Notes: generated from the letters alone by a model not told the origin. A stretch of DNA of 64,000 nucleotides from Alphaproteobacteria bacterium (GCA_964291215.2 OZ219790.1:768001-832000), one strand, 5' to 3'. Counted from the first letter of the stretch, positions 3,663-41,776 are shown. Translations and numbers: made by a program.

Positions 3663-3747
3663 GTTGGGTTAAGGATTGTCATGATGTAATTGTTGCGTCC
3701 GTGCGGGCGCGGCGCAGGCGTGGAATTCGGGACGGGAGGATGAGGTC

Positions 3748-4321
3748 ATGACGCAGACGCCGGGCGATGTCGGGATGCATGACCTGCGGCTCTTCGGGCG
3801 GGATGTGAGCGCCTCACGCGCGCGCGAACCCGAACTCGTTGTACCCCCCCCCCCCCCCCCCCCCCCCCCCCCCCCCTCAAGAGTCAGGGCGCGGGGCTGA
3901 GCCGGTGGGCGCCCTCGGGAGAACCGCCCGCCGCCTGAAGGCGGGACTCGCTGCCTTACTTCTGCTGACCCTCGCCGCCGCCCTCGCGCCCCAGGACGCG
4001 CGGGCGCAGTCGGCGGTCCTCACCGCCACGGCGGGCAACGGGCAGGTCACGCTGAACTGGACCTATAGCGGCTCATCTCCAATCACTAAGTGGGTGTATT
4101 TTCAAGATGATAATGTCGACACCGCCCGCCGCGTTTCCGCCCCGGGCGAACTCTTCGTGCTCTGGGACAGCGCCGGCCTGGTGGTCAAGCGCGTCGCGGC
4201 GCTCACCGCCGAAGGCCGGCTCCGCCTCGTCTCCGCCCACCCCGGCTACCCGCCCTACGAGCGACCGGCCGATGAGGTCCACATCGTCGGCAAGGTGCTG
4301 TGGAAGGTCACCCGCGCCTGA
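3748..4321 (+). pseudogene. Autotransporter 5' end (leader, poly-C, signal peptide, start of FN3) fused in frame to the C-terminal half of a peptidase S24/cI-like repressor
   Basis: 3748-4060 is homologous to 5129-5420; after about 4115 the frame reads VDTARR..GELFVLWD..LVVKRV..LVSAHPGYPPYE..VHIVGKVLW, a typical S24 tail. Confidence 0.75.
3844..3876 (+). repeat. Poly-C tract (C33) in autotransporter leader 0
   Basis: Direct count; context GTTGTA-Cn-TCAAGAGTCAGGG. Confidence 0.9.
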
Positions 4322-4529
4322 GGCGGGCCGGCCAGACCCGCCCGTCCCCGGACACGGCCTTCGCCGCTGCCGGCGGGCCGCGCGGCAGCGCCCCGTCTCC
4401 ATGCCCGTCCGGGCATCCTCTCGCCAGTGTCCGCAACGCGCCTCCTGTCCAGGGGACGTCACGGCGAGACGAAGCAACCCTGCGCCGGACGGCCCGAACC
4501 GCCAATTCGCCTGTAGCGGGCCCGCACCG

Positions 4530-4743
4530 TCACGCCGCCCCCAGCCGGTCCGCCTCCGCCGTCGTCGCCGCCCGGCGCTGCGCCGCCCAGGCATCCAGAT
4601 CCCGGCGGCGATAGCGCACCCGGTTGCCGAACCGGTGGAAGTCCGGCCCGCCCCCGCTCACCCGGTAGCCCTCCAGCGTGCGGGGCGAGAGCCCGAGCCG
4701 CCGCATGCCGCGTGTCCATGAATTCCGGTTCGATCGCGCCCAT
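4530..4743 (-). pseudogene. AlpA/excisionase-like HTH protein with a frameshift near the N-terminus
   Basis: MDTRHAAA continues in another frame as LGLSPRTLEGYRVSGGGPDFHRFGNRVRYRRRDLDAW. Confidence 0.75.
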
Positions 4744-5128
4744 CCCGCTCTCCTCCAGGTCCTTCCCGGCGCCGCCCGCAGCGGCCCGGCGCCACTCTGG
4801 AGACCGCCGCCCTGCCTTGCAAAGGAATCGGTTAGGGGATTTCCATCGCCCCGGACATGCGCGCCAGCCCTGCCCCGGACCGCGGACATGCCGGATGCGC
4901 GCCCCCTCGTCTGGCTGCCCGCGCGGGGCTGGGCAAGGGCGCTGCGAGGAATGCGCGTGTTTGCCATGATCGGCGAAACGTTTGCCGATGGCAGGATGTC
5001 CGGCTGCCGGGCTGTCGGGCACGGCGCGTGTTGAAACCGGCCTGCGGATGGGTTATGGATTGCACCGGCGGGTTCGCTGCGGCCGTGCGGGCGCGGCGGC
5101 GTGGAATCCGGCACGGGAGGATTAGATC

Positions 5129-38360: not shown

Positions 38361-38738
38361 CCAAAGACCCCGCCTGACGGTCCCCGATCAACTCCACGCC
38401 CGCCACAAACTCAGACCTCGATACCCTGCGGTCTTCGGCGGATGCTTACTCATATTCCGCGGACGCAAAGGCGATCTTTTGAAGATCCTCTGGCATGACG
38501 GGGTCGGGACCTCGCTCTACGCCAAGCGCCTGGAGCGGGGCCGGTTCCAGTGGCCGGTGACGTCGGGCGGTGCGGTGTCGATCAGCGCGGCGCAGCTGGG
38601 CTATTTGCTGGAAGGGATCGATTGGAGGAACCCGGTTCGGACCTGGCGCCCGTCGCGGGCCGGCTGACAGGCGGCAAATGGACTCATCCGACAGGATGGC
38701 GATGGCGGCGGACCGGTAGTTGTGATTCGCTTCCGGGC

Positions 38739-40340
38739 ATGCCGGACGGATCGGACATCAACGCGCTGAAGGCGGCGCTGGCTGCGGCGGAAGTCAAGGC
38801 GACCGAGGCCGAGGCGCGGGCCGCGAACGCCGAAGCGCAGATCGCCTCCCTGAAGCTGATGATCGAGAAGCTCCGGCGCGAGCTCTTCGGCCAGCGATCG
38901 GAGCGCAAGCAGCGTCTTCTCGACCAGATGGAGCTCCAGCTCGACGAGCTTGAGGCGAACGCGACGGAGGACGAGTTGGCGGCCGAACAGGCGGCTGCCG
39001 GCACGACGCAGGTCAAGGCGTTCACCCGCCGCCGCTCCGGCCGCAAGCCGTTCCCCGAACATCTGCCGCGCGAGCGTGTCGTAGTGCCCGCGCCGACATC
39101 GTGCGAGTGCTGCGGCTCGCAGAAGCTCTCGAAGATCGGCGAGGACGTCACCGAGACGCTGGAGGTCATTCCGCGCCAGTGGAAGGTGATCCAGACGGTG
39201 CGCGAGAAGTTCACATGCCGGGACTGCGAGAAGATCAGCCAGCCGCCGGCACCGTTCCACCCGACACCGCGCGGCTGGGCGGGCCCCAACCTGCTGGCCA
39301 TGATCCTGTTCGAGAAGTTCGGGCAGCATCAGCCGCTGAACCGCCAGCGCGACCGCTATGCGCGCGAGGGCGTCGACCTCAGCCTGTCGACCCTGGCCGA
39401 CCAGGTGGGCGCCTGCACGGTGGCGCTGAGGCCGCTGCACGACCTGATCGCAGACCATGTGCTGGCGGCCGAACGCCTGCATGGCGACGACACCCCGGTG
39501 CCGGTGCTGGCCAGGGGCAAGACCGACAAGGGCCGGGCCTGGGTCTATGTGCGTGACGACAGGCCGTTCGGCGGGCCGGACCCGCCCGCGGCTCTGTTCC
39601 GCTACTCGCGGAACCGCTCGGGCGATCATCCGGTCGAGCATCTTCGCGACTTCGCCGGCATCCTCCAGGCCGACAGTTTCGCCGGCTACAACCGCCTCTA
39701 TGCGGTCGGGCGAGTGCCGGGGCCTGTTACCGGGATCCCCTGTTGGGCACACGGGCGCCGCAAATTTTTCGAACTCGCCGACATTGCGGCCAGCAAGGGG
39801 CGCGGCAGGAACGCGCCGCCGATCTCGCCGCTCGCGATGGAGGCGGTGAAGCGGATCGACGTGCTGTTCGACATCGAGCGCTCCATCAACGGCGAGACCG
39901 CCGCGCGGCGCCATGCCGTCCGCCAGGAACTGAGCGCGCCGGTCCTGGCCGAACTCGAGACCTGGATGAAGGCCGAGCGCGCAAAGCTCTCCCGCCATTC
40001 CCCCGTGGCCAAGGCCATGGACTACATGCTCAGGCGATGGGACCGCTTCGCCCGCTTCCTCGACGATGGGCGCATCTGCCTGTCAAATAATGCCGCTGAG
40101 AGGGCGCTCAGAGGTATTGCCCTGGGTCGGAAGTCATGGCTGTTCGCCGGCTCCGACCGCGGCGGCAGGCGCGCCGCAGCCATGTACACCCTCATCGGCA
40201 CCGCAAAGCTCAACAACGTCGATCCCCAGGCCTGGCTCGCCGACGTGCTCAAGCGCATTGCCGGCACCCCGCAGAACCGCCTCGGCGAACTTCTTCCCTG
40301 GAACTGGCAGGACAGCCGGCGGCACGACCAAGCCGCATAA
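38739..40340 (+). CDS. tnpC: IS66 transposase TnpC, second copy
   Basis: Protein identical to 36759-38360. Confidence 0.95.
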   Translation: MPDGSDINALKAALAAAEVKATEAEARAANAEAQIASLKLMIEKLRRELFGQRSERKQRLLDQMELQLDELEANATEDELAAEQAAAGTTQVKAFTRRRSGRKPFPEHLPRERVVVPAPTSCECCGSQKLSKIGEDVTETLEVIPRQWKVIQTVREKFTCRDCEKISQPPAPFHPTPRGWAGPNLLAMILFEKFGQHQPLNRQRDRYAREGVDLSLSTLADQVGACTVALRPLHDLIADHVLAAERLHGDDTPVPVLARGKTDKGRAWVYVRDDRPFGGPDPPAALFRYSRNRSGDHPVEHLRDFAGILQADSFAGYNRLYAVGRVPGPVTGIPCWAHGRRKFFELADIAASKGRGRNAPPISPLAMEAVKRIDVLFDIERSINGETAARRHAVRQELSAPVLAELETWMKAERAKLSRHSPVAKAMDYMLRRWDRFARFLDDGRICLSNNAAERALRGIALGRKSWLFAGSDRGGRRAAAMYTLIGTAKLNNVDPQAWLADVLKRIAGTPQNRLGELLPWNWQDSRRHDQAA

Positions 40341-41267
40341 CCAAAGACCCCGCCTGACGGTCCCCGATCAACTCCACGCCCGCCACAAACTCAGACCTCG
40401 ATACCCTGCGGTCTTCGGCGGATGCTTACGAACAACCGTCAGTCCTGTCGGGGGCTTCAGGGCGGTGGGGGGATCGTCGTCGTCGGTGATGGTCAGGGTG
40501 AGTTTGCCGGAGGTCCAGCCGAACTTGTAACCAAGCAGCTTGATGGTCTCGTTCGGCTCGTCCCGGGTGTCGCCAAGAATGCGCACGGTCTGCGTGCCCT
40601 GCGTCTCGTCCTCGGCGATGGAGACGGTGGCGCCGCCTGCGGCCGGAAAGCAGTAATCAGTGTCCGCCGGAGACACGGGCGGGCCGCATCCGGACGTGCC
40701 GTGAGGAAGTGCTGTGCCAGAGTCAATGTCGAGAGCAACGGTGATCGAAAAGCCCGCCGGCGCTCCCTCGCCGAGCGTGGCGGTCACCGTCACGTCCGTA
40801 AAGCCGGTGTTGCCCTCGGTGATCGAGGTCGAGGACGCCGACAGGGTGATCGTCTTGGTGGAAGCGGGCGCCGTTGGCGTCGCGGTGACCTGGTTGCTTG
40901 GGTTAGAATTAGCGCCGCTGTTGTGGCGCGCCAACTGGAAGGTGTAGGCAGTGCCGTTGTCCAGCCCCGAGACAGTGTGGGTTCGGACTGAAATCCCGCC
41001 GGGGATAACCTGCCAACTGCCGTACCCGGCCGCGCCTTTCTTCTGTCGATACGACCAGGAGGGATTGGTGAGACCGGAGGGGACATTGGTCCAGGTGAGC
41101 GTCACCTGCCCATTGCCCGCCGTGGCGGTAAGTGTAGTAGCAACAGCAGCCTGCGGCGCGAGGGCAGCGGCGAAGGTCAGCAGAAATAAGGCAGCGAATG
41201 CCGCCTTCAGGCGGCGGGCGGTTCTCCCGAGGGCGCCCACCGGTTCAGCCCCGCACCCTGACTCTTC

Positions 41268-41283
41268 GGGGGGGGGGGGGGGG
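41268..41283 (-). repeat. Poly-C tract (C16 on the minus strand) in autotransporter leader 2
   Basis: G16 on the plus strand, same flanking context as the other two tracts. Confidence 0.9.
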
Positions 41284-41776
41284 TACAACGAGTTCAGGTT
41301 CGCGCGCGCGTGAGGCGCTCACGCGCCGCTCGAAGAGCCGCAGGTCATGCATCCCGACATCGCCCGGCATCCGCGTCATGACCTCATCCTCCCGTGCCGA
41401 ATTCCAAACCTGCGCCGCGCCCGCACGGCCGCAGCGAACCCGCCGGTGCAACCCATAACCCGTCCGCAGGCCGGTTTCAATGCGCGCTGCGCCCGACAGC
41501 CCGGCAGCCGGACATCCTGCCATCGGCAAGCGCTGCCGCCTACGGGCAGGCCGCTTCCGGAACCGCCCGGCGTTTCCCTGGCTGGCGGCGACCTCGAAGA
41601 CCCCGGCGGATCCGGTCGGCGCCGACCGCACACTGCCGCCCTGCGCCGGCCCCCCGTGCGGCGCGCCGGCACAAGCTCCCCCGGCACGATGAGGAAAGGG
41701 CCGCGGAGGGTTCGGGTGAACGGCCGGGCGCCCGGAGGGAGCCCGCGCCGCATTTCCGCCATTCCGGAGGCCGCCG

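What the first reader, a model, noticed from the sequence alone, without database searches (positions are those of the whole stretch)
3735..41390. Family of mobile-element-linked autotransporter adhesins, each gated by a poly-C tract inside a translated leader
Seen: three paralogous 5' ends (ATG 3748, ATG 5129, and ATG 41379 on the minus strand) share GGGAGGAT(G/T)AG(G/A)TCATG. Each then has a leader such as MTRMPGDVGMHDLRLF..SASRARE..LVV, a poly-C tract (33, 19 and 16 C) and the signal peptide. Leader 1 differs from leader 0 by two 6-bp deletions, both frame-preserving, which suggests the leader is translated. All three tract lengths are out of frame; in-frame lengths would be 32/35, 17/20 and 15/18. 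Known: homopolymer slipped-strand ON/OFF switching occurs in Neisseria, Campylobacter and Helicobacter surface genes. Inference: a phase-variable adhesin repertoire carried on integrative elements, which gene callers miss because they start downstream of the tract.
Basis: partly seen in the sequence, partly recalled or inferred. Interest (0 to 1): 0.85.

Follow-up and report, generated by a model that had tools for sequence, protein, structure and literature searches.

The report
Portable poly-C switch on symbiont adhesins
A short start-of-gene cassette with a variable run of cytosines heads twelve surface-adhesin gene copies in this uncultured bacterium and many more in unrelated bacteria, and it likely works as a slip-prone on/off switch of the kind known from pathogens, letting each cell display a different subset of adhesins.

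Summary
In detail: the three 5' ends, the tracts (C33, C19, C16) and the in-frame lengths are as stated. Only one of the three genes is intact; one is a truncated relic and one is split by IS66. The cassette (ribosome-binding site, ~30-codon leader, poly-C, signal peptide) has 12 copies in this genome and 5-17 matches in each of 10 other metagenome genomes from three phyla. It heads fibronectin-III autotransporters with variable N-termini. Evidence for a translated frame switch: the leader frame is open in 71 of 74 leaders; 21 of 63 copies elsewhere are in frame, including the closest relative of the intact gene; the first off-frame stop after the tract is kept in 70 of 70 sequences, the second in 65 of 70. 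All 11 copies here are off frame (p about 0.012), which is unexplained. Switching was not seen, because no raw reads were available, and a restart at GTG 5260 is not excluded. Linkage to conjugative elements holds for 5 of 12 copies. The mechanism matches Neisseria NalP/MspA; the shared portable cassette is the new part. The scan noted this cassette before in other genomes. New variant; interest 0.55.

The parts
3735..3843 (+). Copy 0: Shine-Dalgarno sequence, ATG 3748 and 32-codon leader
3844..3876 (+). Copy 0 poly-C tract, C33 (one more than in frame)
3877..4321 (+). Copy 0 relic: signal peptide and start of the first Fn3, joined at about 4119 to unrelated sequence. That sequence resembles a phage-repressor S24 C-terminus by eye only; it has no Pfam hit. 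The frame ends after 141 aa.
4530..4730 (-). HTH_17 (excisionase-like) remnant upstream of copy 1
   Evidence: E 9.6e-08, over cut-off
4975..5212 (+). Copy 1 shared 5' module: about 150 nt upstream region (promoter inferred, no sigma-70 match), Shine-Dalgarno sequence, ATG 5129 and 28-codon leader
5213..5231 (+). Copy 1 poly-C tract, C19 (one short of in frame)
5253..5255 (+). First off-frame stop (TGA across the A-E codons), 4 nt before GTG 5260; a stop here in 70 of 70 unique sequences
5291..5293 (+). Second off-frame stop (TGA across the L-K codons), closing the other wrong frame
5260..11751 (+). Intact Fn3-repeat autotransporter, 2163 aa from GTG (2207 aa from the leader ATG at C20). Signal peptide to about 5361, judged by eye.
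10405..11751 (+). Translocator: helix plus autotransporter beta-domain, followed by about five further predicted strands
28572..29339 (-). Integrase fragment (Phage_int_SAM_3) just beyond the 3' end of copy 2
30394..35578 (-). 3' part of copy 2 (Fn3 repeats and barrel)
35579..40429 (.). IS66 insertion with an internal tandem 1980-bp repeat and an 8-bp target duplication, interrupting copy 2
40430..41267 (-). 5' part of copy 2: signal peptide and first domains
41268..41283 (-). Copy 2 poly-C tract, C16 (one more than in frame)
41284..41392 (-). Copy 2 Shine-Dalgarno sequence, ATG 41379 and 32-codon leader
41777..64000 (+). Conjugative-element backbone divergent from copy 2: AAA ATPase, DUF2201, ParB, RadC, helicase/methylase, SSB, Toprim. 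It continues beyond the window to a TrwC relaxase and F-type tra genes.

Best explanation
A portable 5' cassette (ribosome-binding site, short leader, poly-C run, signal peptide) heads a family of fibronectin-III autotransporter genes, and it likely switches each gene on or off by slippage of the C run, which would put the leader in or out of frame with the signal peptide. Shown: the anatomy, the spread of tract lengths, the open leader frames, in-frame copies in other genomes, and a conserved stop codon in each wrong frame within about 20 codons of the tract. Inferred: ribosomes start at the leader ATG. At one length in three they read through poly-proline into a long signal peptide, and the adhesin is exported and displayed. 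At the other lengths they stop at one of the two conserved TGAs, and Rho probably ends the untranslated message. With six intact paralogues whose N-terminal halves are 29-56% alike and whose C-terminal parts are 85-93% alike, independent switching would give each cell a different surface set. Spread between lineages, partly on conjugative elements, is inferred from the patchy distribution.
For: (a) The leader frame is open in 71 of 74 unique leaders after the first two codons, against 32 and 23 in the other frames and 50% for shuffles; this includes leaders of unrelated sequence in G064. (b) Median anti-Shine-Dalgarno pairing is -10.3 kcal/mol at 84 leader starts and -5.0 at 80 downstream GTG/ATG codons. 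(c) Outside this genome 21 of 63 scored copies are in frame (21/16/26), the one-third that free slippage gives. The closest relative of the intact gene (L029, 96% over 147 aa) is in frame with C11, and L027 gives a 1602-aa frame from its leader. (d) First off-frame stop: the T is invariant in 70 of 70 unique sequences although the codon is GCT, GTT, ATT, ACT or CTT, and one variant uses TAG. GCT is only 6 of 323 Ala codons in the gene, and synonymous recoding gives such a stop 12% of the time. On a tree it has 0 changes, against a mean of 5.6 for third positions. Second stop: the A is kept in 68 of 68 while the residue is K, S, R, N, I or T. Unassembled contigs of 4 runs list no change at either TGA, though neighbouring bases vary (40 of 43 rows shown). 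(e) Between the tract and the first stop, the signal frame has 0 stops in 54 segments, including inserts of up to 57 nt, against 8.4 expected. (f) L077, L083 and L089 have no ATG, GTG or TTG after the tract yet keep long open genes; L083 and L089 are in frame with their leader start, and L089 has its ATG one base before the tract. (g) The two short-tract or tract-less copies with long genes (L080, L111) are in frame; the three short-tract copies out of frame (L026, L068, L071) have frames of only 57-217 aa. (h) Near-identical paralogues differ by far more than one base (C14/C23, C21/C24, C13/C27). (i) Precedent: poly-C tracts in the NalP and MspA autotransporters, where only in-frame lengths gave protein (PMC3723659, passages). 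(j) Rho, EF-P, MutS and MutL are intact.
Against: No switching was observed: only assembled contigs were served, and they pool paralogues and organisms. In this genome 0 of 11 copies are in frame (p 0.012; 0 of 6 intact genes, p 0.09), which free switching does not predict. Single tract lengths in an assembly can be off by one, so the state of any one locus is uncertain. The downstream codon is GTG or ATG in 67 of 70 unique sequences, with only 2 third-position changes on the tree, and lies 4 nt after the first stop; the second stop overlaps a CTG that has a conserved GGGAGA 13 nt upstream. Both look like restart sites. One wrong frame also has just 1 stop in the 54 segments, so test (e) has low power. 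Four leaders contain a stop (L022, L077, L082, L113). About a dozen starts were chosen by hand, by homology. The sequences are related, so counts overstate independence. A ~78-residue signal peptide holding 6-11 prolines is untested. Eight copies of a homologous leader sit before lipoprotein genes that they cannot reach in any frame.
Confidence: 0.75

Rival explanations
1. Three-level rheostat: the tract sets where the leader ribosome stops, and the two conserved stops are coupling sites. One wrong frame restarts at GTG 5260 and the other at the overlapping CTG, so 'off' copies still make some adhesin.
For: GTG/ATG is kept in 67 of 70 sequences, 4 nt after the first TGA. The second TGA overlaps CTG with the geometry of ATGA coupling, a conserved GGGAGA lies upstream, and a start at that CTG would give a compact 24-residue signal peptide. 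It would also explain why this genome can have 0 of 11 copies in frame.
Against: Shine-Dalgarno pairing at GTG is weak (-5.0 against -10.3). Three long genes lack the start. GTG and CTG are simply the commonest Val and Leu codons here (139 of 194 and 112 of 152). No covarying hairpin sequesters the GTG (3 of 14 pairs change on both sides, 198 of 500 shuffles do as well). The lipoprotein-linked copies keep both off-frame stops with no signal peptide behind them.
Confidence: 0.12
2. Attenuator or polarity switch: what matters is ribosome cover of a C-rich leader. Early stops expose the RNA to Rho; read-through protects it, and the gene's own start then makes the protein.
For: Eight homologous cassettes in this genome precede lipoprotein genes that have their own strong Shine-Dalgarno sequence and cannot be fused. 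Their ~295-nt spacer stays open for 90 or more codons even after internal frameshifts and ends in a second C tract. In G062 the on-frame runs about 190 codons into a lipoprotein start that has its own Shine-Dalgarno sequence (L132). Rho is present. uORF control of Rho is known (PMC12360218, table passages).
Against: For the adhesin genes simple fusion suffices. IS-end remnants lie between the second tract and the lipoprotein genes here, so these copies may be decayed fusions driven by another promoter. No RNA data were available.
Confidence: 0.06
3. The genes are fixed in frame and the lengths are homopolymer errors of the assembly.
For: Frame states outside this genome are spread as random error would spread them (21/16/26). 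The read type of the assembly is not known to me.
Against: Lengths of 9 to 33 among close paralogues exceed error of one base. Error cannot conserve stop codons in both wrong frames. The genome also has poly-C/G spacers between -35 and -10 boxes at 7 sites.
Confidence: 0.04
4. The leader is a poly-proline sensor (EF-P or proline supply) or an untranslated remnant, and tract frame does not matter.
For: Poly-C reads as proline in all three frames; EF-P is present.
Against: A sensor would fix the tract length and frame, and these vary freely. The off-frame stops and the open signal frame depend on frame.
Confidence: 0.03

Closest known systems
Neisseria meningitidis NalP and MspA (phase-variable autotransporters with a coding poly-C tract; PMC3723659, passages read)
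   Same: Autotransporter genes with a poly-C tract in the coding sequence, variable length, and expression expected only at in-frame lengths. NalP's barrel is the top structural match (Z 17.6, rmsd 4.5, 253 aligned; tied with EstA, Hbp, AIDA-I and AaaA).
   Different: The tracts are longer (9-33, median 15.5, against 6-15) and lie before the signal peptide inside a ~30-codon leader. One cassette is shared by 5-17 paralogues per genome and across phyla. The passenger is Fn3 repeats. Both wrong frames carry conserved stops. The hosts are uncultured bacteria, not pathogens.
5' homopolymer tracts as a general gene-inactivation device (PMC2831843, abstract and outline read; Listeria inlA)
   Same: A tract near the 5' end gives a very short off product.
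   Different: That survey concerns poly(A)/poly(T) tracts of up to about 7 bases, not long C runs in a dedicated transferable leader.
Fn3/cadherin/autotransporter proteins of the sponge symbiont Ca. Synechococcus feldmannii, and Fn3 and Calx-beta as eukaryote-like domains of sponge symbionts (PMC6506613, PMC11706023; passages read)
   Same: Multi-Fn3 surface proteins with an autotransporter domain, in several copies.
   Different: Neither main text contains 'phase variation' ('phase': 0 hits in PMC6506613). No switch is described there.
uORF-controlled Rho termination (mgtM, speFL, cruR; PMC12360218, table passages read)
   Same: Leader translation could decide Rho access, which is relevant to the lipoprotein-linked copies.
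   Different: Those leaders respond to metabolites; here the input would be a heritable DNA length change.

Membership tests
Type Va autotransporter | C-terminal autotransporter beta-domain preceded by a helix | tested here: met
   PF03797 38.5 bits, cut-off 26; model pLDDT 84 with an N-terminal helix and strands; top VIA-align rows are autotransporter barrels, Z 15.7-17.6; Atlas hits 0.96
Type Va autotransporter | Twelve-stranded barrel that ends the protein | tested here: inconclusive
   The match covers model residues 1-365; about five further strands (377-447) follow. I could not tell whether they enlarge the barrel or form an appendix.
Type Va autotransporter | N-terminal Sec signal peptide | tested here: inconclusive
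   Basic stretch, hydrophobic core and A-Q-A site seen by eye; no predictor was run
Type Va autotransporter | Surface display and adhesion | not testable with these tools
   Inferred from Fn3 repeats
Translational phase variation by slipped-strand mispairing | Long homopolymer inside the translated 5' region | tested here: met
   Open leader in 71 of 74, strong Shine-Dalgarno pairing, in-frame copies, copies without an internal start; comparative evidence only
Translational phase variation by slipped-strand mispairing | Tract length differs between alleles and all three frames occur | tested here: met
   21/21/32 over 74 copies in 11 genomes; C19 here against C11 in the closest relative
Translational phase variation by slipped-strand mispairing | Reversible high-frequency switching within a population | tested here: inconclusive
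   Only pooled contigs were served
Translational phase variation by slipped-strand mispairing | Protein made only at in-frame lengths | not testable with these tools
   Needs a reporter or proteomics
Integrative conjugative element cargo | Lies between an integrase and a backbone with relaxase and type IV secretion genes | tested here: met
   For copy 2: integrase fragment at 28572-29339, backbone from 41777, TrwC, TraH, TraN, TraU, TraC, TraK and TraE within 60 kb
Integrative conjugative element cargo | Holds for the family as a whole | tested here: not met
   5 of 12 copies here abut the AAA-DUF2201-ParB module; 2 of 83 loci elsewhere, with only 1.5 kb of flank and one query gene
Integrative conjugative element cargo | att sites, excision and transfer | not tested
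   Not searched; the integrase match is partial

The most novel reading that the evidence does not exclude
The cassette is a community-wide, plug-in genetic switch that bacteria of several phyla trade and place before different surface genes. It has evolved stop codons in both wrong frames that double as restart or Rho-exposure points, so a single slipping C run gives graded output on adhesins and controls unfused lipoprotein genes through transcription polarity. That would be a heritable uORF attenuator not described among phase-variation systems.
Probability: 0.2. Interest if true: 0.8.

Novelty: new variant of a known kind. Interest (0 to 1): 0.55.

Why it matters
Contingency loci are mostly studied in mucosal pathogens. 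Here a whole guild of uncultured, probably host-associated bacteria appears to share one standard switch on multi-copy adhesin repertoires. The habitat is inferred from Fn3, ankyrin and IS richness and from earlier scan notes, not from a call. If true, surface variation is a routine part of these symbioses, annotation that starts at the downstream GTG hides it, and the conserved off-frame stops offer a sequence signature for finding real switches in assemblies where homopolymer lengths are doubtful. The 300-nt cassette can be tested directly in a laboratory strain.

Tried and rejected
Reads: 4 runs were listed, none on record as RNA (no RNA holder listed), all as contigs. They pool paralogues and organisms and cannot give per-locus tract spectra. 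Conserved RNA structure as the reason for the invariant TGAs: no convincing covariation, and the 5' region folds worse than all 200 shuffles. Mutator background: MutS and MutL are intact. Promoter: no sigma-70 match at 4900-5420. Selection for the off state as a family rule: rejected, because 21 of 63 copies elsewhere are in frame; adding the 8 lipoprotein-linked copies gives 5 of 19 in this genome. Frame-preserving indels as proof of translation: rejected. Lasso-peptide reading of the G026 loci: 15 nearby ORFs gave no such Pfam family. Range: 0 of 300 genomes drawn across the phylum, with only 2 candidates scored per genome; among 60 relatives only G037 has real copies; G069 has none. One search used an irrelevant query and adds nothing. 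Literature: none of the listings for searches described this cassette. The library lacks most subscription papers, I read no supplements, and most hits were seen as listings only.
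Full report
Observation. Lengths of 32, 20 and 15 join leader and signal peptide. Long C/G runs form a distinct class in this 6.15-Mb, two-contig genome: counts fall to 19 runs of nine and then plateau out to 33, while A/T runs stop at ten. 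Copy 3748 leaves the adhesin at about 4119 and ends after 141 residues. Copy 41379 carries an IS66 at 35579-40429 with an 8-bp target duplication. Only 5260-11751 is whole.

The protein. It has Fn3 repeats and a C-terminal autotransporter beta-domain: PF03797 is over cut-off on the last 448 residues, and many of its 50 homologues carry that family. An AlphaFold model built on 49 sequences has pLDDT 84. Its best structural matches are NalP, EstA, Hbp, AIDA-I and AaaA (Z 16.8-17.6); Foldseek mixes these with larger barrels. About five predicted strands follow the canonical domain, and their role is open. Adhesion is inferred.

The family. The genome holds 12 cassettes: 15 motif hits, 3 of them without tract or leader. 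Eleven have a signal peptide, six are full length (1283-2166 aa) and five are broken. Against the window gene the C-terminal 680-960 residues are 85-93% identical and the N-terminal parts 29-56%. Searches found 8 copies in G037 and 5-17 matches in 9 of 10 further genomes. Their record titles are Alphaproteobacteria, Gammaproteobacteria, Pseudomonadales, Pseudohongiella, Vicinamibacteria, Thermoanaerobaculia and Candidatus Binatia; that these span three phyla is from my own knowledge of the taxonomy. I examined 83 loci from other genomes, including only 10 of 13 matches for G065 and 10 of 17 for G066. The cassette was not found in 300 genomes drawn across the phylum, nor in 59 of 60 relatives. 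The distribution is patchy, which suggests transfer.

Is the leader translated? In one search I dropped 7 loci (relic, chimera, IS at the site, unclear homology or truncated leader), 4 without an assignable start, 4 with a stop in the leader and 6 with tracts under 9 C. L027 and L085 were added. About a dozen starts were set by hand, by homology. Of 74 unique leaders, 71 are open in the start frame, against 32 and 23 in the other frames and 50% for shuffles, including unrelated leader sequences in G064. Anti-Shine-Dalgarno pairing is about twice as strong at the leader start as at the GTG. Frame states are 21 in, 21 and 32 out over 74 copies, and 21 of 63 are in frame outside this genome. The closest relative of the window gene is in frame with C11. 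Three long genes have no standard start after the tract. Short-tract copies with long genes are in frame (2 of 2), and the three short-tract copies out of frame have short, broken frames.

The strongest new evidence is selection on the wrong frames. The TGA at 5253 has a stop counterpart in 70 of 70 unique sequences, with its T invariant under five different codons although GCT is only 6 of 323 Ala codons in the gene. Recoding gives such a stop 12% of the time, and the base shows 0 changes on a tree where third positions average 5.6. Only two other third positions of 24 show none: the G of the second TGA and the last A of a GGGAGA motif. The second TGA keeps its A in 68 of 68 across six amino acids; that frame has a stop in 65 of 70, against 64% by chance. 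Contigs of four runs agree. RNA structure does not explain this.

Against. No switching was seen. This genome's 0 of 11 is unexpected (p 0.012): it may be chance, consensus error, selection against display, or a sign that off-frame copies still work. GTG or ATG is kept 4 nt behind the first stop in 67 of 70 sequences, and the second stop overlaps a CTG below the conserved GGGAGA, so re-initiation stays a live rival. These are also the commonest Val and Leu codons.

A second use. Eight copies of a homologous leader (MTETSGDVVMRGLPWSF...ASRARDLRT; C17-C31; 5 in the long frame and 3 out) precede a second C tract about 295 nt on. Behind it lie lipoprotein-like genes with their own Shine-Dalgarno sequence, which no frame reaches. 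In G062 the long frame runs about 190 codons into the lipoprotein start. Both off-frame stops are present there too, the first at a shifted position. These copies are either decayed fusions or a Rho-polarity version of the switch; Rho is present.

Mobility. Copy 2 lies between an integrase fragment and a backbone that leads to a TrwC relaxase and F-type tra genes. Five of 12 copies sit back to back with that backbone's AAA-DUF2201-ParB module, and two more, copy 1 among them, follow an HTH_17 remnant. Elsewhere only 2 of 83 loci show the AAA gene within 1.5 kb. The link is real but partial.

Comparison. It works like NalP and MspA phase variation (PMC3723659, passages). I file it under translational phase variation on anatomy and allele spread; reversibility and frame-dependent expression are untested. 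Fn3 autotransporters are described in a sponge symbiont without any switch (PMC6506613, passages). Searches listed nothing on this cassette. Three earlier notes of this scan reached the same reading on other genomes; I read them after forming my view, and they are not independent support.

Verdict. Real; a new variant of a known kind; interest 0.55. Frame switch 0.75, restart rheostat 0.12, attenuator 0.06, assembly error 0.04, proline sensor or untranslated leader 0.03.

Noticed in passing
G000 C1:1247507, 2139912, 2452754; C2:160566, 1144304, 1237758, 1844714, 2056824 (L130); G062 L132: A second family of 8 copies with a homologous leader, two C tracts and a downstream lipoprotein-like gene (about 580 aa, no Pfam hit) that has its own start. 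In G062 the long frame runs about 190 codons into the lipoprotein.
   Followed up: partly
G000 C1:1121769, 2154007, 33681; C2:37029, 2939162, 921848, 2876205: Seven promoter-like sites with a poly-C or poly-G spacer (15-26 nt) between -35 and -10 boxes. Five precede glycine/aspartate-repeat (calcium-binding-type, by eye) proteins of 696-851 aa, and four sites lie just downstream of cassette-bearing autotransporters. They look like transcriptional phase variation.
   Followed up: partly
window 2016-2050 and about 30 other places in G000: Variable C/G runs (9-17) at the ends of an IS-like repeat (GGGCTAG-Cn-AGTGAAACGC), some back to back as G15-CTAG-C16.
   Followed up: no
window 11533-11751 (model residues 377-447): About five predicted strands beyond the canonical autotransporter barrel, conserved in homologues: a possibly enlarged barrel.
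   Followed up: partly
L004:1480-1660 and L014:1480-1660 (G026): Shine-Dalgarno sequence, a 9-codon leader and C18, out of frame with a ~40-residue peptide that by eye resembles a RiPP precursor; no modifying enzymes were found nearby.
   Followed up: partly
L125:3873-19786 (just beyond the window): Defence-like cargo in the conjugative element: SNF2 helicase, DUF1156 methylase, DUF499, AAA ATPase and Schlafen, then the TrwC relaxase.
   Followed up: no
window 18186-20879 (-): Ankyrin-repeat protein among transposases.
   Followed up: no
window 6300-10000: Many joints in pooled contigs that skip between Fn3 repeats. This fits domain shuffling among paralogues but is not separable from mixed organisms.
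   Followed up: no
L144 (G061): A homologous leader with C10 followed directly by a transposase-like sequence instead of a signal peptide.
   Followed up: no
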